This document shows positions 1-10,357 of a stretch of DNA of 64,000 nucleotides, one piece after another; within the stretch, counting starts at the first letter, position 1, and the number at the start of each line of letters is the position of its first letter. A model generated the notes under the pieces. It was given only the letters and a program-made list of their open reading frames with translations. It had not been told where the DNA came from and did no database searches. The stretch lies in the IMG/VR virus record IMGVR_UViG_3300009130_000022, positions 4,954 through 68,953 of that record. One strand, written 5' to 3'. Made by a program: the position numbers and the translations under genes. This stretch comes from a virus. Taxonomy: Duplodnaviria; Caudoviricetes.

Positions 1-182
1 CCATGGACTTGGCCGAGGAGCATGACAGCGTCGTGATGCGCGGCGAGGTCGTGGAGTTCGATCCTCGCGAGGGTCAGGACGACGATGTGGACGCGGTGGA
101 CGCGGACGCATGGGCGTTGGCGAGTGCTGGTTTCGGCACCGATGAGGACTACGGCTGCTACGACAGCGGCGACGAGTGGTAA
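1..182 (+). CDS. 5'-truncated acidic phage hypothetical protein (ALASAGFGTDEDYG motif)
   Basis: Frame from 3 reads MDLAEEHD...ALASAGFGTDEDYGCYDSGDEW, TAA at 180-182; GC-rich; not in ORF track. Confidence 0.7.
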   Translation, partial: MDLAEEHDSVVMRGEVVEFDPREGQDDDVDAVDADAWALASAGFGTDEDYGCYDSGDEW

Positions 183-191
183 AAGCGCGCG

Positions 192-264
192 CTAAGTCCT
201 TGATAGTCATGGACTTACCAGCGCGGCTGCCGCGCACCTAACTCATTGATAGTCAAGGGCTTAA
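192..264. repeat. Paired-palindrome element copy 1
   Basis: CTAAGTCCTTG-ATAGT-CATGGACTTAC, GC core with GCGCGGCTGC, CTAACTCATTG-ATAGT-CAAGGGCTTAA. Confidence 0.9.
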
Positions 265-376
265 GAAGATGCCCTCCCAAGCTAACATGAAAGCTCGGAA
301 GGGCTGCGTGGTTATGAGAGATGAATAACTACGCTAGAGTCATTATTATGTTATTTGCTGTTTCGCTTTTTCACTT

Positions 377-892
377 TTATAATTTATAAAATATATGATT
401 ACCTATAACCTTAACAGGCTTCTTTCCTTTAGCCCATTTCGGTTTATCTATTTTATTATTATGATAGTGATTAGCAAACCCAACAAAATCACGACTTAAA
501 AGTTTTATGTTTTTAGCCAGAGAGATAGCGTATTTGGCTTGTGGAACTTTAAGCAAGTGTTCAAGGCTCTTTAACGCTTTACCGTTCCAACAACTGAACT
601 GGTAGGGCTTGAGACAGACTTCTTTTGGTGTTCTACCTCGTTCAAATGCTCGTTGAGCAATGACAGCAGCAACCGCATACATCCCTCCCTGCCCCTCTCC
701 TCTCGCCTCGGCAAGTATAGTAATCGCAATGACCTTCGTCTCTCTAGTAAGTTTGACATTGTTATGTGTGTGTTGCGCGTTAACAGCATTAAGGCCCGCA
801 GCCATTAACGCTGCCGTCCAGACCAGTCGCCACCACGCATCGAGTTCGTTCAGTCCAGTATCGTTGATTAACCATTTTATTCTATTTTTCAT
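377..892 (-). CDS. SleB-like cell wall hydrolase (Hydrolase_2)
   Basis: TILAEARGEG..GMYAVAAVI, PYQFSCWN, HYH, IGNHIFY motifs; N-terminal hydrophobic segment. Confidence 0.9.
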   Translation of the reverse strand: MKNRIKWLINDTGLNELDAWWRLVWTAALMAAGLNAVNAQHTHNNVKLTRETKVIAITILAEARGEGQGGMYAVAAVIAQRAFERGRTPKEVCLKPYQFSCWNGKALKSLEHLLKVPQAKYAISLAKNIKLLSRDFVGFANHYHNNKIDKPKWAKGKKPVKVIGNHIFYKL

Positions 893-1248
893 TTTATTGT
901 TGGCACAGCATGAGCAAAAGACACGCTACTGTAGCAGTCAGTCTCATCGTACTTCGGGGCGTTTTCAATCTTGTTAAGTTCGTGTTCTACATCTTCTTCT
1001 GTCATCCAGCCGCGAACATCAGAATAGCCCAGTTTTTCGTTGTAAACAACATCCCAGTCATTTTCCTGTGACGCGCCTTTAAGTGTGCCGATCTTCAACA
1101 AGGCCAACTCATACTTACCCTCTCTGCCGCCATAGCTATAACTATGACGAACAACAGACAGACCATAACCGTTCTTGAAACGAACGATTCCGTGAACACC
1201 TTCGGGGTCTACCCCGTGACACCTAAATTTAATATCTGAAAATTTCAT
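889..1248 (-). CDS. Conserved phage hypothetical protein
   Basis: FKNGYGLSVV..YGG..GKYELA motif typical of phage small proteins; coupled overlap. Confidence 0.8.
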   Translation of the reverse strand: MKFSDIKFRCHGVDPEGVHGIVRFKNGYGLSVVRHSYSYGGREGKYELALLKIGTLKGASQENDWDVVYNEKLGYSDVRGWMTEEDVEHELNKIENAPKYDETDCYSSVSFAHAVPTIK

Positions 1249-1511
1249 GCGTCCTCTCCAAGCTCAAAGCCTAACGGTGAAAAAGTATCGTCGAACCTAG
1301 CCTTGTTAAGCCCTTTCCGTAAGGTCGTCAGGATGTCTTTTTGCTCTTTGACGATTCTCCTAATGTCCTCAATGTCACCTTCCATGTAGTAGCATTTATT
1401 ATGCGCACGATTAAACAAATGCTCGACATGGGTCAACGAACCCTCAACATCAGCCATAGCCAAACGGGTCTGTTCGATTTCCTTCGCTGCTCTTTTGGTC
1501 ATATCTCTCAT
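1245..1511 (-). CDS. Hypothetical coiled-coil protein
   Basis: ORF directly after promoter 1522-1550. Confidence 0.7.
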   Translation of the reverse strand: MRDMTKRAAKEIEQTRLAMADVEGSLTHVEHLFNRAHNKCYYMEGDIEDIRRIVKEQKDILTTLRKGLNKARFDDTFSPLGFELGEDA

Positions 1512-1521
1512 AACTTTTAAT

Positions 1522-1550
1522 ATAGTATCACAAACAGGTTAACAAGTCAA
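1522..1550 (-). promoter_or_regulatory. sigma70-like promoter
   Basis: TTGACT-17-TACTAT. Confidence 0.7.
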
Positions 1551-1557
1551 GCACTTT

Positions 1558-1767
1558 TTAGTACCATTGTTTCCTGTCGGTCTCGGTGTCATAGCCGTGG
1601 TTGTAGGCTTCTATCTCCGATGCCGTCATATCCTTCTCCTCTACCATCTTGGATGAACCTGTTCCACCTTCGTAGTAGTGCGGGTTGCTGCCTCTGCCGT
1701 AGTAGCGATCTGCGGAACCTCGATCATAAGGCCCGCCATGTCTCTTGTTGTATATCTTCTCTGTCAT
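1558..1767 (-). CDS. Conserved phage hypothetical protein (RHGGPYDRGSAD motif)
   Basis: Start moved to ATG 1767 because a consensus promoter lies within the longer ORF call. Confidence 0.8.
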   Translation of the reverse strand: MTEKIYNKRHGGPYDRGSADRYYGRGSNPHYYEGGTGSSKMVEEKDMTASEIEAYNHGYDTETDRKQWY

Positions 1768-1777
1768 AACTCCGCAC

Positions 1778-1806
1778 ATTATAGCATCAGAGGGTGTCCG
1801 TGTCAA
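1778..1806 (-). promoter_or_regulatory. sigma70-like promoter
   Basis: TTGACA-17-TATAAT. Confidence 0.85.
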
Positions 1807-1823
1807 CACTTTTTTTTCTTGTC

Positions 1824-1897
1824 GTAAGTTGTTAACTATCATAGACTTAGCAAGCGCGGCTGCGGCCCAGCTAAGTCATTGATAATCAAAGAGATGG
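1824..1897. repeat. Paired-palindrome element copy 2
   Basis: GTAAGTTGTTA-ACTAT-CATAGACTTAG, core GCGCGGCTGC, CTAAGTCATTG-ATAAT-CAAAGAG. Confidence 0.85.
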
Positions 1898-1969
1898 ACG
1901 CGAGGGTCGGAATCGAACCGACGATTGCGGTTTTGCAGACCGCCGCCTTAACCACTTGGCCACCTCGCG
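1895..1969 (-). tRNA. tRNA-Cys (GCA), CCA encoded
   Basis: Acceptor CGCGAGG/CCTCGCG, U73, anticodon arm GCGGT-CTGCAAA-ACCGC, T arm GTCGG-TTCGATT-CCGAC. Confidence 0.95.
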
Positions 1970-2007
1970 TTTATTTGGTATTTAAACATTTCCTATTTGC
2001 CTGTCGC

Positions 2008-2036
2008 AAAAAAACCCCCCGCCGAAGCGAGGGGTC
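2008..2036 (-). terminator. Intrinsic terminator
   Basis: GC hairpin with TTCG loop followed by T7. Confidence 0.85.
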
Positions 2037-2065
2037 GTGAGCATGAATAATAACAACTCAGTTCT

Positions 2066-2371
2066 TCAGGAAGATTCTTCCAACGGAAGGTCATCGAATG
2101 CATCGCCGCCGCTCGGCTGCAATTCCTTCATCCGCGTCTTTAGGTTTTGAATTTGTTCGAGCTTCTTCATTCTATTTAATTTGAGTCCTTCCACGCTTCC
2201 TCGTAAACTCGAAATCTCTAGCTGTTGCTTTTTAACTAGGCTAGATACTTCATGCATTAGTTCACATACATCACTTAAAGACTCGGAATTCTCTTTTCCA
2301 AGAGCTTTAATGATCTCGAACACTTTGGGGTTCATGTTATACGATTCGTGGGGCTGATATTGATTTGCCAT
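2066..2371 (-). CDS. Hypothetical protein
   Basis: 101-aa ORF, coiled-coil-like. Confidence 0.7.
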   Translation of the reverse strand: MANQYQPHESYNMNPKVFEIIKALGKENSESLSDVCELMHEVSSLVKKQQLEISSLRGSVEGLKLNRMKKLEQIQNLKTRMKELQPSGGDAFDDLPLEESS

Positions 2372-2378
2372 AATTAAA

Positions 2379-2642
2379 TTACTCCGAAATTACTTGACGT
2401 ATCTGTGCGAACTTCTTATTGATAAACGCAACAACATCGCAGTCGGCTGCGTTTCTTTGCCGAAGAGACCTAATTTGGTAATCAATGTGCCTCCGCATTT
2501 CACTCCGAACATGATCCCGCATGATAATCTTGTCATGCTTTACCTTTCGTGTGACCTTCTTCTTCGCGGCCTTCTTCTGTAAATGTTTTGTTTTCACTAC
2601 TTCTTCTTCTTCAAATGCTTTTATCAACTCTTGATAATCCAT
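2379..2642 (-). CDS. Hypothetical basic protein
   Basis: 87-aa ORF in operon-like arrangement. Confidence 0.65.
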   Translation of the reverse strand: MDYQELIKAFEEEEVVKTKHLQKKAAKKKVTRKVKHDKIIMRDHVRSEMRRHIDYQIRSLRQRNAADCDVVAFINKKFAQIRQVISE

Positions 2643-2647
2643 GTATT

Positions 2648-2684
2648 AAAAAAATGGTGGCGGGAGTATTTGTGTACCCGCACC
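2648..2684 (-). terminator. Intrinsic terminator or attenuator
   Basis: GGTGCGGG...CCCGCCACC hairpin then T7, just before ATG 2642. Confidence 0.65.
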
Positions 2685-3175
2685 TTTTCAGTACCCAGAA
2701 AACAAATGTTTCAGATCTACTTACTTCGGACTCACCCACGAGATTCCTCAACCGATTGGTCTCCGTACTTGTCGCAGTCGCTACGTTACCCCTTTGGGAG
2801 GGGTTATTCCGTCACACCGATCTCACTCCGTCGAGAGAGAAAATTGAATTGAGTTGCTGCCGCGCCACCAGCAGTATGATCGCGCTGTATTGCAAGCGCA
2901 GTCGCGTAAGATGTCCTACCATCCCTGTCCTCCCCTTCATCCCGCCAAGGAAAAGGTTTGGCGATGGAGGCGTATTTAACTCGCCAACTCAAATTATATA
3001 AAAGAACTTTGGCCGCTTTTTATGAGGTGCTACCTCTAACTAGGCGCGAACCTAGGTGCGACCCAAATAAAGGGTCAGGGAGTGATTAGCATTGTATTCC
3101 TACCCTAATCTTTTAAGTCCGCCCTGCCAGACTTTCAACAACCCAAACCTTGGTTCATGACCAAATCAACCAAGA
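2648..3175 (-). ncRNA. Candidate ~525-nt structured ncRNA or long cis-regulatory leader
   Basis: Own promoter, terminator, no convincing ORF, at least 10 hairpins and long-range stems. Confidence 0.55.
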
Positions 3176-3181
3176 AAATAT

Positions 3182-3210
3182 ATGATAGCATGGTCGGGGT
3201 TCAATGTCAA
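3182..3210 (-). promoter_or_regulatory. sigma70-like promoter of candidate ncRNA
   Basis: TTGACA-17(ttgaaccccgaccatgc)-TATCAT. Confidence 0.8.
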
Positions 3211-3217
3211 CGCCTTT

Positions 3218-3460
3218 TTACAAAGCAGCCAGAGAAATTACTCTGTCTGCTCGAAAGGCCCGAACATCGCCATCACGGTTAATCACGCGAGCGTAAAACC
3301 CTACTTCACGCCCATCGTTGTAAAGTGGCTTCCACCCTCTACGCGCCCCCTTGAGATAATAAATCTTGGTAGCGTGTTTTTCGGGTGAATAAACCATCAC
3401 ATAGTTAGTAACCTTGGGAGCCATCCCAAGCCATCTCTTTACTCTGTCTTTTATCGTCAT
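3218..3460 (-). CDS. Small WYL/Sm-like-fold protein (putative)
   Basis: C-terminal GDVRAFRADRVISL resembles WYL R-x-FR-x-DRI motif. Confidence 0.5.
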   Translation of the reverse strand: MTIKDRVKRWLGMAPKVTNYVMVYSPEKHATKIYYLKGARRGWKPLYNDGREVGFYARVINRDGDVRAFRADRVISLAAL

Positions 3461-3471
3461 TCGTTAAAGTA

Positions 3472-3500
3472 ATAGTAACACAAATCGGGGCCGAGGTCAA
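3472..3500 (-). promoter_or_regulatory. sigma70-like promoter
   Basis: TTGACC-17-TACTAT. Confidence 0.75.
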
Positions 3501-3502
3501 GC

Positions 3503-4003
3503 CTAATCCATCGCAAACTTGAACCTGTCAAACTGTTCTTCTATCCTATGACAGAGAACATCAGTCAGCATCTCTCCACGACTCTCTGGAAAATCTTCCG
3601 AGAAGTTCTTAATTTCAATCTTCACTTGTTCCAATAAATCATTTATGTCATCCATTCCCTCATTATAGCACCCACGGGCTTCTTTGTCAACCCAGTTAGG
3701 GTTATGCTTGGACTGTAAACGCACCCAAGCCTCCGTATACAACACACGGTACTTCTCGCGCTTATCCTTTGGCCAAAGCCGTTGGTCAAACGTTTCCCTG
3801 TCATCGACAACAGGAGGAAAGTCAGGATGCACTATCCTCTGCGCCCTACTAGGCGAACAGCGGATATGCTTGTCATAGATAAACAAACGATTGGCGTCTG
3901 TGTTCTTTAGCTCGCCCGTCTCTACGCCAAGCTCTACCTGTGATTCCCAAGCTCCTTCTATGGGCTTGCCGCACTCTGCACAATCTGTCGGATAATAACT
4001 CAT
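3503..4003 (-). CDS. Hypothetical protein with CxxC
   Basis: 166-aa ORF, coupled overlap. Confidence 0.7.
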   Translation of the reverse strand: MSYYPTDCAECGKPIEGAWESQVELGVETGELKNTDANRLFIYDKHIRCSPSRAQRIVHPDFPPVVDDRETFDQRLWPKDKREKYRVLYTEAWVRLQSKHNPNWVDKEARGCYNEGMDDINDLLEQVKIEIKNFSEDFPESRGEMLTDVLCHRIEEQFDRFKFAMD

Positions 4004-4680
4004 AAAAGTCCTAAATTAACTAAATTCTCTGCGTTCTTTGGCGTATACTTTCTACGGCGTGGATGCTTCTTCTTAAAGCCCATCTGATCAAAGGTATACT
4101 TCAATCCTTTATTCCACGGCACACGCTTTGGCTTTGGCTCTGGAATGTAGAATATGTTGAAGTGCGGCCCAACAGCCGTCTTGTCCCTAACGACAACACG
4201 CTCTGACTTAAACAATGACTTTTTAGATATGTCATCTACAAAAGTATCATACTTATAAGGATTGTAATAAGCATGACGAAATTCCTCGCCTGACTCTGGC
4301 ACACACTTTTCGCACCACATGGTTCCTTTGCATTGACAAATCTCATACTTTTCTATCTTGTCACGAACTAACCGATGACGCTCTTTCGAAACCTCGCCAA
4401 TGTCATGGCAGTTGCCGATAATGTAAGCGTGAACATTCTTACGCTTTTCCCGAAGGACTCGTTGCCGCCCCGCCTCCTGCACTCGAAACTCCGCATTGTG
4501 CAATTCAACACGATGAGCGTGACAATAAAGCAATCCAGTTTCCGCATCAATCACCGAAAGGCATTCCTTCTGAATGTTGTAGTAAACTTTCACGCGGTCT
4601 GGCGCAACCTCGATGCCGTCCATCATCTTGCGAGGCCCAGCATCTTTCCAGCTAATGAATCCCTTTGGTTCTTTGCTCAT
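4000..4680 (-). CDS. Conserved phage hypothetical protein (RQRVLREKRKNVHAY family) with Zn-ribbon-like insert
   Basis: Recognisable phage motif; ATG 4680 gives ATGA coupling. Confidence 0.75.
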   Translation of the reverse strand: MSKEPKGFISWKDAGPRKMMDGIEVAPDRVKVYYNIQKECLSVIDAETGLLYCHAHRVELHNAEFRVQEAGRQRVLREKRKNVHAYIIGNCHDIGEVSKERHRLVRDKIEKYEICQCKGTMWCEKCVPESGEEFRHAYYNPYKYDTFVDDISKKSLFKSERVVVRDKTAVGPHFNIFYIPEPKPKRVPWNKGLKYTFDQMGFKKKHPRRRKYTPKNAENLVNLGLL

Positions 4681-4949
4681 GCTTCTTGGGCAATTTCTTC
4701 CATTGTTCCAAACAACTTTTCCCAACCCATTGGGCTTGTTCCAGAGATTAAAAACTCCCTGTCACCAGCGCACAACGACTTGAGCATCATAATGTTGCCA
4801 GTACGACGAAAGTCAAAAAGCTCTGACCCTTTAACCGTCACACTATAATTGTCACCAGTAACCAAACACGCCCCCGTGAATGTGTAGGTGTGTTCCGGCT
4901 CGTAAGCCTCGGTGTAGGTGCATCCTGTGTCAATGAATCTTTCCTTCAT
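4677..4949 (-). CDS. Hypothetical protein
   Basis: ATG 4949 follows promoter 4960-4988. Confidence 0.7.
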   Translation of the reverse strand: MKERFIDTGCTYTEAYEPEHTYTFTGACLVTGDNYSVTVKGSELFDFRRTGNIMMLKSLCAGDREFLISGTSPMGWEKLFGTMEEIAQEA

Positions 4950-4959
4950 AACTTTTAAT

Positions 4960-4988
4960 AGTATACCACAGCAGGGTGGTGAAGTCAA
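4960..4988 (-). promoter_or_regulatory. sigma70-like promoter
   Basis: TTGACT-17-TATACT. Confidence 0.85.
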
Positions 4989-5110
4989 CTACTTTTTTTA
5001 CCTTTTTTTCGGTTGTATGACCCTTTACCCTTTTTGGGCGTATGTATACGCTGCCCTGTGTTCCAAGGAACAAGTGCTCGTAGTCTGGGCTTTTCCGAAC
5101 TCGTTTTCAT
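4985..5110 (-). CDS. arfA: ArfA-like alternative ribosome-rescue peptide (41 aa)
   Basis: MKTSSEKPRLRALVPWNTGQRIHTPKKGKGSYNRKKGKKSS contains the ArfA signature KKGKGSYxRK; own leaderless promoter. Confidence 0.7.
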   Translation of the reverse strand: MKTSSEKPRLRALVPWNTGQRIHTPKKGKGSYNRKKGKKSS

Positions 5111-5116
5111 GCGTAT

Positions 5117-5145
5117 AGTATATCATACACGTGCTTGCAAGTCAA
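5117..5145 (-). promoter_or_regulatory. sigma70-like promoter (leaderless)
   Basis: TTGACT-17-TATACT, ATG 6 nt downstream. Confidence 0.85.
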
Positions 5146-5162
5146 GCATAAAAGTTAACATC

Positions 5163-5236
5163 GTAAGTCGTTGATAGTCAATGACTTACCCCACGCGGCA
5201 GCCGCCGCGCTAAGTCACTGAACATCAATGGTTTAG
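5163..5236. repeat. Paired-palindrome element copy 3
   Basis: GTAAGTCGTTG-ATAGT-CAATGACTTAC, core CGCGGCAGC, CTAAGTCACTG-AACAT-CAATGGTTTAG. Confidence 0.9.
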
Positions 5237-5270
5237 GGAAGAGCCGCCCCGCTAGGGGGCGGCGATAGAA

Positions 5271-5546
5271 TCAGACTGTTTCCTTTTGCTGCCTGAACAT
5301 ATTAGACAACAAAGCGCGTGCCTTTCGCAGTCTCAATTTAATGGGAGACATATCTATTTTATCTAAATAGTTTTCAACCTGTTCTTGTGTCGCCTTCTCC
5401 AGCTTTCGGTGGTTCCAGCTTCGCTCGTCTTTTTGATGCCAATAGGTTAGCACTCTAACCGGTGACACCTTACCTATGACACGCTCTGTTCTTTTAGTCT
5501 CTGTATTATAATACAGGGCTCCATTTCTTATTTCGTTTATTTTCAT
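5271..5546 (-). CDS. Hypothetical protein
   Basis: 91-aa ORF followed by GC hairpin. Confidence 0.7.
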   Translation of the reverse strand: MKINEIRNGALYYNTETKRTERVIGKVSPVRVLTYWHQKDERSWNHRKLEKATQEQVENYLDKIDMSPIKLRLRKARALLSNMFRQQKETV

Positions 5547-5607
5547 TTTTGCATTCTAATTATGATAGCTACGCAAAACCATAAAACCAACAGTCCTATG
5601 ATTAGCA

Positions 5608-6354
5608 TTATGCGGCCTTGTACCCTGTGAATCCTTTCTTTTTGAGTTCCCGCAAAGCCTTTGCAGACTTACTACCTTTTGGCTGCACCCCATGCAGGAG
5701 CAAACCAAAATCCTTTTCGCCATGTATGGCAAATTCATCGGTGTGGTCAACATCCAAACCCAATGCGTCAATTTCCTCTTGTGAAAAAAATACTGTCGCT
5801 TTTTTGACTCCCAGCCCAGCGATCAAATGGTCAAACTTACCACCTGACGAACAAGTGAAAACATAGTTGCTCGGCAACGCTTCCGAACATTGAAGATACC
5901 TAGCCAGAAACTGAACGCTTTTTGTATAACTGTAAAATGTCACCAAAGGGAAACGCTTTGCCGCTTCCATCCATGCGTCAAAATAGTCATATGAGAAAAA
6001 ATCCCCCCCAATATGCACACGCAAGAAACCGCCAATCTTCTGCAGCCCTTCGGGTATACTTCGGCAAATCAAATCCGTCATTCCTGTGACTGTTTTCGCC
6101 CTTGCTAACTTGTCAAGATTATCCCAACGAGCTTTTCTCACGGAAGGGTAGGTTGCTTCCATCCCTGCTGCATAACAACGATACGATACGCCGTCGACTG
6201 GTGTCGACCTGTCTGTCAGCTTGCCTGTCGCCCTGTCGGCCTTTGTGAGGCAATTCTTCGCGCCGGGACAAGTCCAGCCAGAGGGCAATGAGAAGTGCCA
6301 AATGCCTTTCAGCTTGGCGTTTTCAAATGTAATCAGTAGTTTATCAATTCCCAT
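5608..6354 (-). CDS. GP88-like phage protein
   Basis: FSLPSGWTCPGA..C, CYAA, RVHIGGDFF, FYSYTK motifs; start set to ATG 6354 after promoter. Confidence 0.75.
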   Translation of the reverse strand: MGIDKLLITFENAKLKGIWHFSLPSGWTCPGAKNCLTKADRATGKLTDRSTPVDGVSYRCYAAGMEATYPSVRKARWDNLDKLARAKTVTGMTDLICRSIPEGLQKIGGFLRVHIGGDFFSYDYFDAWMEAAKRFPLVTFYSYTKSVQFLARYLQCSEALPSNYVFTCSSGGKFDHLIAGLGVKKATVFFSQEEIDALGLDVDHTDEFAIHGEKDFGLLLHGVQPKGSKSAKALRELKKKGFTGYKAA

Positions 6355-6364
6355 AACGCAAACA

Positions 6365-6393
6365 AGTATAGCAAAGAGGGGGACGAATGTCAA
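6365..6393 (-). promoter_or_regulatory. sigma70-like promoter
   Basis: TTGACA-17(ttcgtccccctctttgc)-TATACT. Confidence 0.85.
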
Positions 6394-6396
6394 GAG

Positions 6397-6426
6397 AAAA
6401 AAGGAGGGGCGATTGCTCGCCCCTCC
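6397..6426 (-). terminator. Intrinsic terminator
   Basis: GGAGGGGCGA/TCGCCCCTCC stem plus T6. Confidence 0.85.
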
Positions 6427-6455
6427 CGTGTGCTAGGTGTGTTCCCCACCCTTCT

Positions 6456-6662
6456 TTAGTCCATAGCGGCTAAAGAATCCTCAAGATGCTTTCGCGTCAC
6501 TTCTTTGACCTTTGACTCGTCTAAACAGCGAGAGACAATAGTCGATGCTGGGATTCCTGTTTCTTGGGCAATCTTTTTTAGGTTGTCCAATATGCTCTGC
6601 GATATGCGAAATGCGCCCATCGCCTTCTTGCTGCCATCGGCAGACTTTTTTTCTGATGCCAT
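6456..6662 (-). CDS. Ribbon-helix-helix (CopG-like) DNA-binding protein
   Basis: AFRISQSILDNLKKIAQETGIPASTIVSRCL fits the RHH pattern. Confidence 0.65.
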   Translation of the reverse strand: MASEKKSADGSKKAMGAFRISQSILDNLKKIAQETGIPASTIVSRCLDESKVKEVTRKHLEDSLAAMD

Positions 6663-6677
6663 AATAAGTATTATAGT

Positions 6678-6857
6678 TTAACTTTTCTTACTGTTACCGT
6701 AAGAAATTCTTTTGGGCCTACCTTTAGAATCTTTCGGCCCTTCTGGTTCCAAGCCGTGCTTTTTAAGGAACTTCTTGTACCCCTTGTCAACATCCTTGGC
6801 TAGACCCGCAACATCGCCATAGCCCCAATCGCCTTGTTTAATAATGTCTCTACTCAT
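6678..6857 (-). CDS. Hypothetical basic protein (59 aa)
   Basis: MSRDIIKQGDWGYG...SKKS fills the gap; below ORF-track cutoff. Confidence 0.6.
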   Translation of the reverse strand: MSRDIIKQGDWGYGDVAGLAKDVDKGYKKFLKKHGLEPEGPKDSKGRPKRISYGNSKKS

Positions 6858-7293
6858 AAGAATTAAAAGATGGTGTCTTGCCGTTTATGCTACCGAGCCT
6901 GTGTGGGTCAGGCACACATTGTTTCGGTTTAATGTTATTCACAAATTGCAAATTCTCCATTTCGTCAATAGCCGCTTTCATTGAATCTTCGTCGATACGG
7001 CTATCGTCAAAATCCGTATGCCACTCACTATACAATGGAGATTCACCCATTTCAATCCTTTTTTCATCGTCTTGAATAAGTCTTGCCTTGATTGACCTAC
7101 GAAAATAGTGCAACATTAAGTCAGGGCTTGTCATAAATGTCAAACTCTTGCTATCTGCTTCCTTGACCTTGCTTGTAGCTAGATGATTCAAAAGCGAATT
7201 TGCCATTAGTCCTAATGCCGTTTCCGAATTAGTGACGCAACTGCCATACCACTTTTCCTCTCCGTCTCTCTGGAATGTTAATTGTCCTAACAT
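6850..7293 (-). CDS. Hypothetical protein
   Basis: GAGGA RBS-like motif and promoter upstream. Confidence 0.7.
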   Translation of the reverse strand: MLGQLTFQRDGEEKWYGSCVTNSETALGLMANSLLNHLATSKVKEADSKSLTFMTSPDLMLHYFRRSIKARLIQDDEKRIEMGESPLYSEWHTDFDDSRIDEDSMKAAIDEMENLQFVNNIKPKQCVPDPHRLGSINGKTPSFNSYE

Positions 7294-7319
7294 AGTCTTT
7301 TCCTCTAAACGCTGTTAAA

Positions 7320-7348
7320 AGTATGCCATAGGCGGGAAACAATGTCAA
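7320..7348 (-). promoter_or_regulatory. sigma70-like promoter (divergent pair)
   Basis: TTGACA-17-CATACT. Confidence 0.7.
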
Positions 7349-7372
7349 CAGTTTTTTTCAATAATAATTTGC

Positions 7373-7401
7373 TTGACGCAGGGGTTTAACTGTGATAGAA
7401 T
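7373..7401 (+). promoter_or_regulatory. sigma70-like promoter for small RNA
   Basis: TTGACG-17-TAGAAT with TG extension. Confidence 0.8.
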
Positions 7402-7407
7402 ATCCAA

Positions 7408-7480
7408 AGTGAGTGGGGGGTGGCTTAGCGGATTCCCAGCTGCGGCCTGTTAATTGTGATAGGGACTCCCCCCACTCGCT
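7408..7480 (+). ncRNA. Candidate small RNA, tRNA-Asn-like but lacking T arm
   Basis: 13-bp closing stem AGTGAGTGGGGGG/CCCCCCACTCGCT; D-arm-like TGGCTTAGCGG..AGC; CTGTTAA loop. Confidence 0.45.
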
Positions 7481-7481
7481 C

Positions 7482-7556
7482 TTAAACCTTTGACTATCAT
7501 AGACTTACGCGCGGGGCAGCCGCGGCGAGCTAAGTCATTGATACTCAGGGACTTAC
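7482..7556. repeat. Paired-palindrome element copy 4
   Basis: TTAAACCTTTG-ACTAT-CATAGACTTAC, core GCGCGGGGCAGC, CTAAGTCATTG-ATACT-CAGGGACTTAC. Confidence 0.9.
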
Positions 7557-7607
7557 GTGTCAAGCTTTTAATTGAGAAACTTTTTTGCCTATGACCGTAA
7601 AAAGTGC

Positions 7608-7636
7608 TTGCTATGATAACCCTCCTGTGGTAAGAT
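7608..7636 (+). promoter_or_regulatory. sigma70-like promoter
   Basis: TTGCTA-17(tgataaccctcctgtgg)-TAAGAT. Confidence 0.7.
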
Positions 7637-7665
7637 ATAAAGCGTGTTAAGGAAAGGATCAGATT

Positions 7666-8583
7666 ATGGCAAGACCAAGTAAACCCCATACATCGGTGTT
7701 CGACTATGTAGTCGAGCAGAGGAAAACCTACATCCCGCACGGCGACGGTTATCGCTGGACAGGGAAGTGGAGCAATGTTCGCACGGATACGGGCGAATCA
7801 TTAGGTGACGGCATCAGCGAGCAATACGGTTTGCTCCAGAACGGGGTGCTAGTCGAGTCGTTGGAGAACGCCTTCAACGACTACAAGGAGTTGCAGGACT
7901 TCACCCGCGAAGTCTCGGTGACTGAAAACGGTGCGCGTTTCTACGGGCGGTATAGCTTCCCGAAGAACCAGCGCATTCTCACTCCTGCCGTGGGCGACTC
8001 GGTAGGTATGGTGTTCGACTTGCGGAACTCGTTTGACCGTTCCACCAAGGCAGGGCTGGGCATCGGTTCGCTTCGTTTGCTCTGCTTGAACGGCATGACC
8101 TCCACCGAGAACATGGCCTCAATCACGGCAAGGCACACCAACAAGATCAATGTTGGCACGATAAAGGATGGCATCGAAATGGCCATTGAACGCTGGGAAA
8201 ACTCCATCGACAAGATGGCCGAGTTCACCCAGAGGGAAGTCACCCAAGAACAGGGTGTCGTGATTCTGAATAACCTTGCCCAGAAGAAGGTGCTGTCGGA
8301 ATCTCTCAAGGACTCCATCGAGTTCATCTGGAACGGTCAGGTCGAGGGACTTGGCAGGGGCGGCGAAGCTGACAAGGCTCGCAATCTGTGGAACCTCTAC
8401 AACGCGACCACCGAGCATCTGACTCACCAAGTCGCGCCGAAGCGGTTCGAGTATTCTCGCAGCGTCGAGAATAAGGTTCTGTCAACCTTCACGCGCTCGC
8501 TGAAGGACAACAAGGTTTGGGATGCGCTGCTGAAGCCCGTTCCAAAAAACAAAGAGGACAAGACAGTTACAATTTCTGTCTAA
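7666..8583 (+). CDS. DUF932-family protein
   Basis: ISEQYGLLQN, ENGARFY, LRNSFDRS, LRLLCLNG, RHT, NLWNLYNATTE motifs; AAGGA RBS. Confidence 0.85.
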   Translation: MARPSKPHTSVFDYVVEQRKTYIPHGDGYRWTGKWSNVRTDTGESLGDGISEQYGLLQNGVLVESLENAFNDYKELQDFTREVSVTENGARFYGRYSFPKNQRILTPAVGDSVGMVFDLRNSFDRSTKAGLGIGSLRLLCLNGMTSTENMASITARHTNKINVGTIKDGIEMAIERWENSIDKMAEFTQREVTQEQGVVILNNLAQKKVLSESLKDSIEFIWNGQVEGLGRGGEADKARNLWNLYNATTEHLTHQVAPKRFEYSRSVENKVLSTFTRSLKDNKVWDALLKPVPKNKEDKTVTISV

Positions 8584-8595
8584 CCTCATAACGCT

Positions 8596-8630
8596 AGGGG
8601 GCGGGGCGCACGAGCCTCGCCCCTCTTTTT
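8596..8630 (+). terminator. Intrinsic terminator
   Basis: GC-rich stem followed by T5. Confidence 0.75.
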
Positions 8631-8634
8631 AAAC

Positions 8635-8829
8635 ATGACAAGATATCACAATTCTCCGAAGCGGAAATATTCCGTGACGCGCTTTGATGCGAAAAGGGTG
8701 CAGATAGCATGGCGACCCGACCAGCGAACAGCTCACGCCCTATTGTTTGAAAACCCCAATCATATAAACCTGATTCCGCAAATACTGGAAGAGGCAGGAT
8801 ACGAACGCTGCGAACGCGCCGTGTTCTAA
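8635..8829 (+). CDS. Possible hypothetical protein
   Basis: 64-aa ORF after a terminator; weak support. Confidence 0.35.
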   Translation: MTRYHNSPKRKYSVTRFDAKRVQIAWRPDQRTAHALLFENPNHINLIPQILEEAGYERCERAVF

Positions 8830-8898
8830 GTCGTTGACTGTCAATGACTTACGCGCGGGGCTGCGCGCCTCGTAAGTCTCTGATACTCAATAGCTTAC
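8826..8898. repeat. Paired-palindrome element copy 5
   Basis: CTAAGTCGTTG-ACTGT-CAATGACTTAC, core GCGCGGGGCTGC, GTAAGTCTCTG-ATACT-CAATAGCTTAC. Confidence 0.9.
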
Positions 8899-9123
8899 AA
8901 CAATTAAATGGCAAAAAAATTATTAAATTATTCTTTATATATAATACTCTACTCATTTATCTATGTATATCTGTCAACTCATTGGTATATTTACATACTT
9001 ATTTGGTGCTTATTTGAAAACTGGCAATAAACCGGCGTTTATTTATTTGGACTTATTTGATAAACTGGCAAAAACTGGCAAATATTCAATTATAATTATT
9101 TGCAATTTATTTAAAAACTGGCG
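8899..9123. repeat. AT-rich tract with AAACTGGC direct repeats
   Basis: AAACTGGC at 9018, 9062, 9072, 9115; AAACCGGC at 9029; several TTATTTG. Confidence 0.65.
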
Positions 9124-9156
9124 AAAAAAAAAGGACTCACGCTTTCGCATGAGTCC
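9124..9156 (-). terminator. Intrinsic terminator
   Basis: GGACTCATGC-GAAA-GCGTGAGTCC plus T9. Confidence 0.9.
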
Positions 9157-9178
9157 CGCAAGGTACGCCGCAGATAAT

Positions 9179-9373
9179 CTATCTGCTATTAGACGACCTT
9201 TTGACCAGCACCCTACCATCGGTAGAATTCACAAAAGTTGTGCCGATTGCCCGAGCAGATTTCCACTCCGACAGGTGTTGGTTGGTCTTCTTAAGGTATT
9301 CTACCTTATTAACCTTCATCTTCTTGTCAGCGGTTTCGCTAACTGTTACCCGATATGTCTTTGGCCTAATCAT
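9179..9373 (-). CDS. Hypothetical basic protein
   Basis: Last ORF of RuvB operon, before terminator. Confidence 0.6.
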   Translation of the reverse strand: MIRPKTYRVTVSETADKKMKVNKVEYLKKTNQHLSEWKSARAIGTTFVNSTDGRVLVKRSSNSR

Positions 9374-9391
9374 AGCACTAATTAGACTCTG

Positions 9392-10357
9392 TTAACTCAA
9401 CCAATCTTCAAGGTTTTTTAAGTAGTCTTGGCCGCGAGTTGTAAGACAACGACCTTGAGGGTCAATCTCCATCAGATTGTGCTTCTGGAGGTAGAGTTCA
9501 TGGTCGCGCTGTAAACAAGATTTACTCAATCCCAACTTTGCTGACAAATTGGTGAGGCGCGTGAATTTCTGTTCACTCAATGTTTGAAGTAAACGAATCT
9601 CGGCGCGTGATAGCCCAAGAGCAGCAATGTCCAAGGTTCGACGCAACTTCTTCCAATCATCGTAGGTGAAATTAGTTTTATCTCCCGACCTCTTTTTGCC
9701 CAAGTGCAAGCGCACCTTGTCTGCCATTTGTTGAGCCTTCCGAGCGTTGCCGCGCAATGTCGGCGCGATTTGGGAAAGCACCTTGCCTTGCCATTTCTGC
9801 TTCTCGTTGATGCCCTTCATTATCAGACCTAGTTCGTCATGGGAATAATCCTCCAAGTCGATACGCTCCATCCTGTCCATCAAGGCATGGAAAACATCTT
9901 GAGCCTCGGTAGTGGCGAAAATGAAACTCAATCTAGTAAAATCACAAACAAAAGTATAATCATCATAAGTAAATTCAGTTACATTATCTTTGTTTGGATT
10001 CAACATTGTTAACAATGCCATTGTTACATCCTTTGGCAGTTCACTACATTCATCGAACAATATAGTAGCGTCCCTGTCTACCAGATGCGGCACAACCAAG
10101 TCATTGAAGAATTGCTTGAGGTTGCTTATCGTGGCACAATTAATTTCCAGCAACGGTTTAGGCCGCCCATCCTTCGTTACAAGGTTTCTGCCAAGTGCCT
10201 TCGCAAAGACGGTCTTGCCAGTTCCTTTGGGCGCAACAAACATAATGTGCGGTATCTGGCCGCTAGATTGATACGCTTCAATGAAGAATGTTATCTTACG
10301 CTTGGCAGCGTCTTGTCCTACAAGGCTAGGGAAGTAATCAGTAGTAGTAGTTTTCAT
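9392..10357 (-). CDS. ruvB: RuvB-like AAA+ branch-migration ATPase
   Basis: Walker A APKGTGKT, Walker B ILFDE, FIFATT, LRGNAR, C-terminal winged helix ending GRCLT. Confidence 0.85.
   Translation of the reverse strand: MKTTTTDYFPSLVGQDAAKRKITFFIEAYQSSGQIPHIMFVAPKGTGKTVFAKALGRNLVTKDGRPKPLLEINCATISNLKQFFNDLVVPHLVDRDATILFDECSELPKDVTMALLTMLNPNKDNVTEFTYDDYTFVCDFTRLSFIFATTEAQDVFHALMDRMERIDLEDYSHDELGLIMKGINEKQKWQGKVLSQIAPTLRGNARKAQQMADKVRLHLGKKRSGDKTNFTYDDWKKLRRTLDIAALGLSRAEIRLLQTLSEQKFTRLTNLSAKLGLSKSCLQRDHELYLQKHNLMEIDPQGRCLTTRGQDYLKNLEDWLS

What the first reader, a model, noticed from the sequence alone, without database searches (positions are those of the whole stretch)
2648..3175. Promoter-driven ~525-nt highly structured non-coding RNA near a tRNA
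A consensus promoter (3182-3210) fires into ORF-poor DNA ending at a hairpin plus U7 (2648-2684). The 5' part holds six short hairpins in series (3149-3174, 3115-3134, 3084-3110, 3060-3076, 3040-3055, 3024-3036), and the loop CAGGG (3122-3126) can pair with CCCUG (3076-3080) as a pseudoknot. An 8-bp stem (2985-2992/2849-2856) closes a multibranch domain. UGGUGGCG (2863-2870) can pair with CGCCACCA (2655-2662), competing with the terminator. It matches no tRNA, tmRNA or RNase P signature I can recognise. It may be a new large phage ncRNA (cf. GOLLD/ROOL, which occur near phage tRNAs) or a long attenuator for ORF 2379-2642.
Basis: partly seen in the sequence, partly recalled or inferred. Interest (0 to 1): 0.8.

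Follow-up and report, generated by a model that had tools for sequence, protein, structure and literature searches.

The report
Modular manA-type phage leader RNA
The flagged gene-free stretch is a real folded RNA of about 530 bases from an uncultured marine phage, built as a chain of separate modules that ends in an uncatalogued relative of the known "manA" RNA and runs straight into a tiny basic-protein gene it is always found with.

Summary
A consensus extended -10 promoter (3210-3182, minus strand) is followed by about 530 nt without a conserved ORF, ending in a hairpin plus U7 (2689-2648) 5 nt before the ATG of an 87-aa basic protein.

It is not one new giant RNA. It is a string of self-contained modules:
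- a 5' hairpin;
- an H-type pseudoknot (D1);
- a small three-way module (D1b);
- a boxA-like linker;
- a multi-stem domain (D2);
- a divergent manA-class domain (D3, 2839-2655). Rfam RF01745 gives 40.3 bits against a cut-off of 55.2, E 1e-8, and a model built from D3 finds canonical manA in return.

More than 100 marine metagenome and virus loci carry D3. Covariation supports D1, D2 and D3. Relatives range from promoter+D3+gene alone to leaders of about 800 nt, so the 5' modules are optional.

D3 and the "KTKH" basic-protein gene were linked in every locus examined, whichever of the two was used as the search query. The mechanism is not shown. My best reading is a co-transcribed leader whose manA-like core gates the gene through competing helices. 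A free, self-assembling manA-type RNA is the main rival, because a 2026 preprint shows manA cages in vitro.

This scan had already noted the same kind of element on other DNA (e1-5733779). I class it as a new variant of a known kind.

The parts
3182..3210 (-). Sigma-70-type promoter with extended -10 (TTGACA, 17 nt ending in TGn, TATCAT). The predicted start is near 3175.
   Evidence: 11 of 12 matches, TG present. An equivalent TTGACA-N16-18-TAnnnT promoter is found in 81 of 113 relatives, and the rest are cut by contig ends. TG is present at -15/-14 in 68 of those 81.
3149..3174 (-). 5'-terminal hairpin. Its sequence is specific to this window; relatives have other hairpins in the same place.
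   Evidence: In relatives the first 42 nt fold only slightly better than shuffled sequence (-7.5 against -5.6 kcal/mol), so support is weak.
3076..3132 (-). D1, an H-type pseudoknot. The stem is 3132-3128 with 3121-3117. The loop 3126-3122 pairs with 3080-3076. An optional inserted hairpin lies at 3110-3084.
   Evidence: In 59 distinct copies the pseudoknot pair types are A-U, U-A and G-C with no mismatch at the variable position. The stem's fourth pair is A-U 50, U-A 4, G-C 3, U-G 2. The inserted hairpin is absent in 15 copies and replaced by other hairpins in others.
3011..3063 (-). D1b, a small three-way module: a closing stem 3063-3058 with 3016-3011, and two hairpins at 3056-3040 and 3036-3024.
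   Evidence: There are only 6 distinct copies. One hairpin and the closing stem each show a compensating change. Support is weak.
2997..3008 (-). boxA-like linear motif. The family consensus is GUUCUUUGAA and this window has a degenerate copy.
   Evidence: The motif occurs in 45 of 55 long distinct leaders against 3.4 expected by chance, and in none of 10 short leaders. It usually lies 12-13 nt 5' of D2. Its resemblance to E. coli rrn boxA (PMC2724277, Table 1) is a lead. Binding was not tested.
2849..2993 (-). D2, a multi-stem domain closed by 2992-2985 with 2856-2849. It ends in the hairpin 2874-2857 and has variable apical hairpins.
   Evidence: In 31 distinct class-B copies 99.5% of cells are paired, against 97.2% when shuffled and about 45% when slid. 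The terminal hairpin covaries (C-G 17 / U-A 14; A-U 20 / G-C 11). A shorter class A shares the closing stem and terminal hairpin.
2655..2839 (-). D3, a divergent manA-class domain. It comprises the P1 hairpin with GACG loop (2839-2822), the junction 2818-2804, the P2 hairpin (2803-2789), a central region unlike canonical manA, the stem 2717-2686, and a 3' hairpin (2680-2661).
   Evidence: Rfam RF01745 scores 40.3 bits, E 1.2e-8, over model positions 1-192. Relatives score 22-48.8 bits. Covariation in 69 distinct copies: 99.5% paired, 12 pairs changed on both sides, slid controls about 50%. The D3 model R1 finds canonical P-SSM2 manA at 32.3 bits, E 7e-9.
2648..2689 (-). Terminator-like extended hairpin: an A-run, GGUG 2684-2681, the 3' hairpin, CACC 2659-2656 and U7 2654-2648. 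The same CACC can instead pair with GGUG 2818-2815, which would close the whole manA-like domain.
   Evidence: RNAalifold picks the local form. The single-sequence minimum-energy fold picks the long-range form. All bases involved are invariant in 69 copies, so covariation cannot decide between them. That the two forms compete is an inference.
2379..2642 (-). Gene for an 87-aa basic protein with the invariant motif KTKH..KA.K..K.TR..K. It is always found directly after D3.
   Evidence: There is no Pfam or PHROG family. Homologues come only from metagenomes. The AlphaFold model is all-helical, pLDDT 80, with no PDB match by fold or sequence.

Best explanation
Window 3210-2379 (minus strand) is one early-type phage transcription unit. 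A strong promoter makes a long untranslated RNA that continues into a small basic-protein gene.

The conserved core is the last module, D3. It is a divergent manA-class fold that ends 5 nt before the start codon. The modules in front of it are optional add-ons that relatives gain, lose and swap: the 5' hairpin, pseudoknot D1, D1b, the boxA-like linker and D2.

Proposed working (inferred, not shown):
- D3 folds into the manA core, closed by GGUG 2818-2815 pairing with CACC 2659-2656.
- The same CACC is also the 3' strand of a local A-run/hairpin/U-run element (2689-2648) that looks like an intrinsic terminator and covers the U-rich ribosome-landing region.
- The folding state of D3 therefore decides whether polymerase and ribosomes continue into the gene, and how much free RNA is made relative to mRNA.
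- The trigger is unknown. It could be binding of the basic protein itself (feedback), self-association of the manA-like core, or a small ligand. I favour the protein.
- The boxA-like motif probably protects the long untranslated stretch from Rho-dependent termination.
For: Shown:
- Promoter.
- No conserved ORF in the leader.
- Covariation for D1, D2 and D3.
- D3 is homologous to manA in both directions of search.
- Canonical manA in P-SSM2 has the same layout: a TTGACA-17-TATAAT promoter, then the RNA, then a U-run, then AUG.
- Minimal relatives consist of promoter + D3 + gene, with only 14-18 nt between the predicted start and D3.
- The start codon lies 11-16 nt after D3 in all loci.
- All 11 viral loci found through the protein carry D3 directly upstream. 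Six of them lie on contigs that the D3 pattern scan of the viral collection had not found.
- Only one copy of each module is present in the window.
- Both alternative helices are possible, and each is picked by one folding method.
- The boxA-like motif is enriched only in long leaders.
Against: - There are no transcript data.
- The bases of both competing helices are invariant, so neither helix has covariation support.
- Canonical manA RNAs precede unrelated genes (PurS-like and hsp20 in P-SSM2). That argues against the downstream protein being the general effector of the class.
- The preprint shows canonical manA RNAs assembling into cages without any ligand or protein, which fits a free RNA product at least as well.
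- The 12-nt loop and bulged C make the hairpin an atypical terminator. The consensus terminator scan did not list it.
Confidence: 0.5

Rival explanations
1. It is a free-standing structural RNA. The promoter-to-U7 transcript (about 530 nt) would be the product. Its manA-like core would self-assemble into multimers, as canonical manA does in vitro, and the 5' modules would be peripheral decorations. The basic-protein gene is then merely downstream and is expressed by leaky read-through, or the protein is a partner that binds the assembled RNA rather than being regulated by it.
For: - Canonical manA RNAs form decamers and a 60-mer cage in vitro (preprint).
- The 3' end has an invariant A-run, hairpin and U-run.
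- The leader is very large and modular (up to about 620 nt before D3), which is unusual for a regulator of a 264-nt gene.
- There is an rRNA-style boxA-like motif.
- tRNA genes are recurrent neighbours.
- Unchecked notes from this scan describe stand-alone manA genes in other marine phages.
Against: - The gene has no promoter or Shine-Dalgarno sequence of its own, and its AUG lies 5 nt after the U-run. It can therefore only be expressed from this transcript.
- The strict two-way linkage with one gene family points to more than simple adjacency.
- D3 lacks the central helices of canonical manA, so the published kissing-loop interfaces may be absent.
- Oligomerisation of D3 has not been tested.
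Confidence: 0.27
2. It is a classical metabolite riboswitch. D3 would be an aptamer for a small molecule, as first proposed for manA, with the terminator-like hairpin as its expression platform. The upstream modules would be unrelated or additional sensors.
For: - manA was proposed as a riboswitch candidate (PMC2864571).
- D3 has many invariant unpaired nucleotides.
- One 3' strand is shared between a domain-closing helix and a terminator-like hairpin.
Against: - No paper found in two searches of the library reports a ligand for manA; these included one review of former orphan riboswitches, which does not mention manA, and one riboswitch database paper that was listed but not opened.
- The regulated gene is a basic protein of unknown function, not a metabolic gene.
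- Canonical manA forms ligand-free assemblies.
Confidence: 0.1
3. It is an N/nut-like processive antitermination device. The basic protein would bind the nascent structured leader (D1/boxA-like/D3), load onto RNA polymerase with host Nus factors, and carry it through the U-run hairpin and the downstream terminator (2036-2013) into tRNA-Cys and later genes.
For: - The layout (early promoter, structured leader with a boxA-like motif, then a small basic protein with an N-terminal Lys/Arg-rich motif) mirrors lambda PL-nutL-N. This comparison rests on established knowledge; the boxA sequences are in PMC2724277.
- A terminator and a tRNA lie downstream.
Against: - The protein has no similarity to N or Q proteins.
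- Minimal relatives lack both the boxA-like motif and D1.
- Canonical manA loci have no such protein.
Confidence: 0.08
4. It is not a functional RNA: either a degenerate coding region or chance structure in a spacer.
For: Minimum-free-energy z-scores are not significant.
Against: - Homologous loci number more than 100, with compensatory changes in three domains.
- ORFs are broken in relatives.
- The domain matches manA in both directions of search.
Confidence: 0.02

Closest known systems
manA RNA motif (Rfam RF01745; Weinberg et al. 2010, PMC2864571; cage structures in Ren et al. 2026 preprint 10.64898/2026.07.01.735769)
   Same: - D3 aligns to the whole model (positions 1-192), E 1e-8.
- It shares the P1 hairpin with GACG loop, the GUGAC.GAAUAA junction, the P2 hairpin followed by UAA, and the 3' hairpin with an A-rich loop.
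- A 5'/3' closing helix is possible.
- It occurs in marine phages, directly behind a sigma-70-type promoter, and ends in a U-run just before an AUG, as in P-SSM2.
- A model built from D3 finds canonical manA in return.
   Different: - All copies score below the Rfam cut-off (22-48.8 against 55.2 bits).
- The two long central stems of the model are replaced by other hairpins.
- A sequence-only profile does not find canonical manA.
- D3 is always coupled to one small basic-protein gene, whereas canonical manA precedes metabolic, hsp20 or photosynthesis genes.
- D3 is usually preceded by 70-620 nt of extra structured modules.
- Oligomerisation has not been tested.
rRNA-operon and lambda nut boxA leaders (NusB/NusE-dependent antitermination)
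   Same: The linear motif GUUCUUUGAA matches about 8 of the first 10 positions of E. coli rrn boxA (PMC2724277, Table 1). It lies after a structured element and before a long untranslated structured RNA, and it is present only in long leaders.
   Different: The sequence is not identical, and the window's own copy is more degenerate. The host is unknown. No Nus binding was tested. No boxC or canonical boxB hairpin was identified.
GOLLD and ROOL large ornate RNAs (Rfam; Kretsch et al. 2025, PMC12286853)
   Same: Both are phage-associated, lie near tRNA genes, and are large, multi-domain and non-coding. Those RNAs form RNA-only multimers, as canonical manA does in vitro; whether the manA-like D3 here does so is untested.
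   Different: - Neither Rfam model matches, even at E up to 10.
- This RNA is a chain of separable optional modules rather than one integrated fold.
- It is fused to a protein-coding gene.
Autoregulated phage leaders (T4 gene 32 pseudoknot leader; lambda nutL-N)
   Same: The resemblance is in how it may work. A 5' pseudoknot or structured site in the leader of a nucleic-acid-binding early protein would let the protein control its own synthesis. This comparison rests on established knowledge.
   Different: There is no sequence or fold relationship, and protein binding is not shown here. The leader is far larger.

Membership tests
manA RNA (RF01745) | Score at or above the Rfam gathering cut-off (55.2 bits) | tested here: not met
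   The window scores 40.3 bits. Relatives score 22-48.8 bits. Canonical P-SSM2 manA scores 181.6 bits.
manA RNA (RF01745) | Significant full-length match to the covariance model, and a match in the reverse direction | tested here: met
   E 1.2e-8 over model positions 1-192. The D3 model R1 hits canonical manA at 32.3 bits, E 7e-9, over its full length.
manA RNA (RF01745) | 5' hairpin P1 with conserved GACG loop, followed by the GUGAC.GAAUAA junction and a P2 hairpin plus UAA | tested here: met
   These lie at 2839-2787. P1 has 5 pairs with changes on both sides. The P2 pairs change on one side only.
manA RNA (RF01745) | Central multistem region (two long stems, model positions about 60-150) | tested here: not met
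   The cmscan alignment deletes both stems. D3 instead has short hairpins and the stem 2717-2686, which covaries.
manA RNA (RF01745) | 3' hairpin, plus a helix joining the 5' junction strand to the 3' tail | tested here: inconclusive
   The 3' hairpin covaries (3 pairs). The closing helix GGUG:CACC is possible and appears in the minimum-energy fold, but it is invariant and competes with a local helix.
manA RNA (RF01745) | Self-assembly into pentamer-based closed oligomers (2026 preprint) | not testable with these tools
   This was shown only for canonical members in vitro. A mutual-information scan of D3 gave only two-state correlations (84-93/85-92 and 54-149), which shared ancestry could also produce.
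GOLLD / ROOL | Match to the Rfam covariance models | tested here: not met
   There is no hit at the gathering cut-off over the whole window, nor at E up to 10 in 2300-3500.
Riboswitch with terminator expression platform | A ligand-binding aptamer whose closing strand is shared with a terminator or sequestering hairpin | tested here: inconclusive
   A shared 3' strand is present. No ligand is known. Termination could not be tested.
boxA antitermination element | Linear boxA consensus bound by NusB/NusE in a leader RNA | tested here: inconclusive
   The motif resembles boxA and is 13-fold enriched in long leaders. Binding cannot be tested here.

The most novel reading that the evidence does not exclude
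The manA-like RNA and the invariantly linked KTKH basic protein form a phage-made ribonucleoprotein. The RNA core would self-assemble into a multimeric shell or scaffold, as canonical manA does in vitro. The small basic protein would bind, neutralise or fill it. The swappable 5' modules would decorate the outside. This would be an early-infection RNA-based compartment or decoy, with the 3' hairpin/U-run setting the ratio of RNA to protein.
Probability: 0.12. Interest if true: 0.9.

Novelty: new variant of a known kind. Interest (0 to 1): 0.6.

Why it matters
manA has been an RNA of unknown function since 2010 and has just been reported to build RNA-only cages in vitro. This subfamily adds three things that make its biology testable:
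- an obligate protein partner gene, a tiny basic protein, which suggests manA-class RNAs may work with or on proteins rather than metabolites;
- a natural series of constructs, from a bare core to about 800-nt multi-module leaders, which shows which parts are core and which are accessory;
- an rRNA-like boxA-type motif that appears only when the untranslated part is long, which hints at how phages keep long non-coding transcripts from being terminated.

D1, D2 and the other modules are covariation-supported RNA structures with no Rfam family. The whole D3 subfamily lies below the Rfam cut-off, so standard annotation misses it.

Tried and rejected
- blastn (distant mode) of 2300-3500 against 50,697 phage records found no match.
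- The protein upstream of the promoter (3218-3460) has no relatives in the viral contigs.
- My first DNA pattern for D2 was mis-specified, with 10 Ns instead of 9. Loci L004-L014 are chance hits and were ignored; L016 is also a chance hit.
- The genome-contig scan gave 24 hits, about the number expected by chance. None is a real D3 by profile search.
- No whole genome is held for this window.
- Coding readings were rejected. ORF 2804-2992 (-) and ORF 2588-3001 (+) are broken in relatives and have no Pfam or PHROG family.
Part of that sequence is already in the covarying D2 hairpin stem. Three distinct variants change the middle U to C without compensation, and combinations of D2 and D3 variants mismatch at position 7.
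- The hairpin 3076-3060 is not conserved.
- For the KTKH protein, Pfam, PHROGs, a PDB profile search, Foldseek against the PDB and the ESM Atlas gave nothing usable.
- A sequence-only profile of D3 does not reach canonical manA; the covariance model does.
- The mutual-information scan for tertiary or kissing contacts in D3 gave only two-state correlations and is unresolved.
- Rfam E-value scans of ten other leaders found no family for D1, D2, D2b or the other modules.

Full report
**What is there**

All genes around the finding lie on the minus strand. A near-consensus promoter with an extended -10 lies at 3210-3182. From about 3175 to the U7 run at 2654-2648 there is no conserved reading frame. 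The ATG of an 87-aa ORF follows at 2642.

The window is part of a large uncultured marine phage:
- It encodes DnaE, DnaB, a class II ribonucleotide reductase and two tRNAs.
- Its DnaE is only 27% identical to the best hit in 50,697 phage records.
- No whole genome is held for it.

**Known-family check**

At Rfam gathering cut-offs only the two tRNAs are found. An E-value scan of 2300-3500 finds the manA motif (RF01745) at 2838-2650. The score is 40.3 bits against a cut-off of 55.2, E 1.2e-8, over the whole model. The 3' third of the flagged region is therefore a divergent manA-class domain, here called D3. The alignment keeps these parts of the model:
- the P1 hairpin with its GACG loop;
- the GUGAC.GAAUAA junction;
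- the P2 hairpin;
- the 3' hairpin.

It deletes the two long central stems.

**Relatives**

The downstream protein led to three viral contigs. A conserved 18-nt D3 pattern then gave 7 viral stretches (6 of them real, on 6 contigs) and 120 metagenome stretches, of which about 103 are real. Their contig names resemble those of ocean surveys, but I did not look up the samples. A scan of 185,579 species genomes gave only chance hits.

Aligning the loci shows that the region is modular. Some relatives have the promoter 14-18 nt before D3. Others have up to about 620 nt of extra RNA in between.

Among 65 distinct leaders with a complete promoter:
- the commonest layout is D1 + boxA-like motif + D2 + D3 (41 leaders);
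- six more also carry a further module, D2b;
- five have only the D1b-type module;
- four have nothing before D3;
- the window's layout (D1 + D1b + boxA-like + D2 + D3) occurs in two.

Only one copy of each module occurs in the window.

**Structure support**

In 59 distinct copies the variable pseudoknot pair is A-U 32, U-A 12 and G-C 15, with no mismatch. None of 5000 shuffles reaches the observed pairing. The stem's fourth pair also covaries. The hairpin inserted in its long loop is absent or replaced in many copies.

*D2.* It comes in a long form (class B, as here) and a short form (class A). Both share the closing stem and a terminal hairpin. On 31 class-B copies 99.5% of cells pair, against 97.2% shuffled and about 45% slid. 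The terminal hairpin covaries strongly, and there are single compensatory events in the closing stem and an inner stem. Variable-length hairpins sit at three apical positions.

*D3.* On 69 distinct copies 99.5% of cells pair, against 94.6% shuffled and about 50% slid. Twelve pairs change on both sides.

*D1b.* There are only six distinct copies, so support is weak.

Minimum-free-energy z-scores are not significant. The case therefore rests on comparative evidence.

**Not coding**

For both ORFs that overlap the region (2804-2992 minus, 2588-3001 plus), every near-full-length tblastn match in relatives contains stop codons. Neither has a Pfam or PHROG family.

**Relation to canonical manA**

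P-SSM2 carries a canonical manA scoring 181.6 bits. It sits directly behind a TTGACA-17-TATAAT promoter. It ends in a U7 run 6 nt before the AUG of a small PurS-like ORF, which is followed by hsp20. This is the same layout as the minimal relatives here.

A covariance model built from D3 finds that canonical copy at 32.3 bits, E 7e-9, over its full length. A sequence-only profile does not find it. I conclude that D3 is a divergent subfamily of the manA class. It fails the Rfam cut-off and lacks the central stems, so I file it as a variant and not as an ordinary member.

**The linked gene**

In every locus with enough downstream sequence, the first ORF after D3 is a 71-102-aa basic protein. It carries the invariant motif KTKH..KA.K..K.TR..K and starts 11-16 nt after D3. 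A few loci have a 65-aa Cys-rich ORF inserted between the two.

I then searched from the protein side, using an alignment as the query. This gave 11 viral loci, and all 11 carry D3 directly upstream. Six of them lie on contigs that the D3 pattern scan of the viral collection had not found. In this sample the linkage holds in both directions.

The protein has no known family and is found only in metagenomes. It is predicted to be all-helical, with a less confident basic N-terminus. It has no structural or sequence match in the PDB.

**How it may work**

The 3' strand CACC (2659-2656) has two possible partners:
- GGUG at 2818-2815. This closes the whole domain, as in the manA model, and is the form in the single-sequence minimum-energy fold.
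- GGUG at 2684-2681. This gives an extended A-run/hairpin/U-run element that resembles an intrinsic terminator and covers the U-rich stretch before the AUG. It is the form RNAalifold picks.

All of these bases are invariant, so covariation cannot choose between the two.

The gene has no promoter or Shine-Dalgarno sequence of its own. It must therefore be expressed from this transcript. A conditional gate at this point is the simplest reading, but it is an inference.

Part of it lies in the covarying D2 hairpin stem, and several relatives break the proposed pairing.

**boxA-like motif**

A linear motif with consensus GUUCUUUGAA lies between D1 and D2 in 45 of 55 long leaders, against 3.4 expected by chance. 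It is absent from all 10 short leaders. It resembles the E. coli rrn boxA sequence given in PMC2724277, Table 1. The window's copy (3008-2997) is degenerate. A role in protecting the long untranslated RNA from Rho is plausible but untested.

**Literature and earlier notes of this scan**

manA was described as a cis-regulatory riboswitch candidate (PMC2864571). Later papers only annotate it (PMC9964418).

A 2026 preprint (10.64898/2026.07.01.735769) shows canonical manA RNAs forming decamers and a 60-subunit icosahedral cage in vitro, through kissing loops. I came to that preprint through earlier notes of this scan and read it myself.

Those notes also show that the scan has met this kind of element before on other DNA:
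- a 'modular manA-type phage leader RNA' running into a tiny basic-protein gene (e1-5733779);
- several stand-alone or two-core manA genes with boxA-like leaders.

I found no publication describing the modular leader, modules D1 and D2, or the protein linkage.

**Verdict**

The element is a covariation-supported, promoter-driven, multi-module RNA whose core is an uncatalogued variant of manA, obligately coupled to a small basic-protein gene.

The best-supported mechanism is a co-transcribed leader whose manA-like core gates the gene (about 0.5). The main rival is a free, self-assembling manA-type RNA (about 0.27). No transcript, binding or assembly data could be obtained here.

Noticed in passing
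window 1895-1969; L046:30-103 and 1950-2023; L031:2449-2522; L018:9440-9513; L020:3496-3569; L111:7390-7463; L064:1762-1838: A tRNA-Cys (GCA) gene recurs near the leader/KTKH unit in many relatives: within about 1.5 kb in L046, L031, L018, L020 and L111, and further away in L049 and L096. In L046 and L031 it lies 50-70 nt after the KTKH gene. L064 has tRNA-Met in that place. The unit may belong to a stable-RNA-type operon.
   Followed up: partly
L144:1460-1720 (P-SSM2, AY939844 142837-143034): The canonical manA of P-SSM2 starts a few nt after a consensus TTGACA-17-TATAAT promoter, just downstream of regA. It ends in a U7 run 6 nt before the AUG of a PurS-like ORF, which is followed by hsp20. 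This is the same promoter-RNA-U-run-AUG layout as the minimal relatives here.
   Followed up: partly
L002:2847-3044 and other L002-type loci (L022, L060): A 65-aa ORF with CxxC...CxxC (zinc-ribbon-like) is inserted between D3 and the KTKH gene in one sub-lineage.
   Followed up: no
relatives, e.g. L020:2280-2170, L029, L046, L101: Some relatives have a further optional closed module (D2b) between D2 and D3. Others (L002, L049, L110) have another long module between D1 and D2. Neither matches an Rfam family.
   Followed up: partly
window 1-10000: The first 10 kb have a higher G+C content (0.44-0.47) than the rest of the window (0.36-0.42). They hold 30 promoter-like sites against 10.5 expected, many with the full TTGACA-17-TATAAT consensus plus TG. 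This looks like an early region of small ORFs, each with its own promoter.
   Followed up: no
window 2013-2036: A strong intrinsic-terminator-like hairpin (10 pairs, 7 G-C, plus a T-run) lies between ORF 2066-2371 and tRNA-Cys. No promoter for the tRNA was detected between them.
   Followed up: no
A3 columns 84-93, 85-92 and 54-149 (window about 2757-2748 and 2787/2693): These are two-state correlated changes outside the nested D3 structure that would keep Watson-Crick pairing. They could come from shared ancestry, or they could be tertiary or intermolecular (kissing) contacts.
   Followed up: partly
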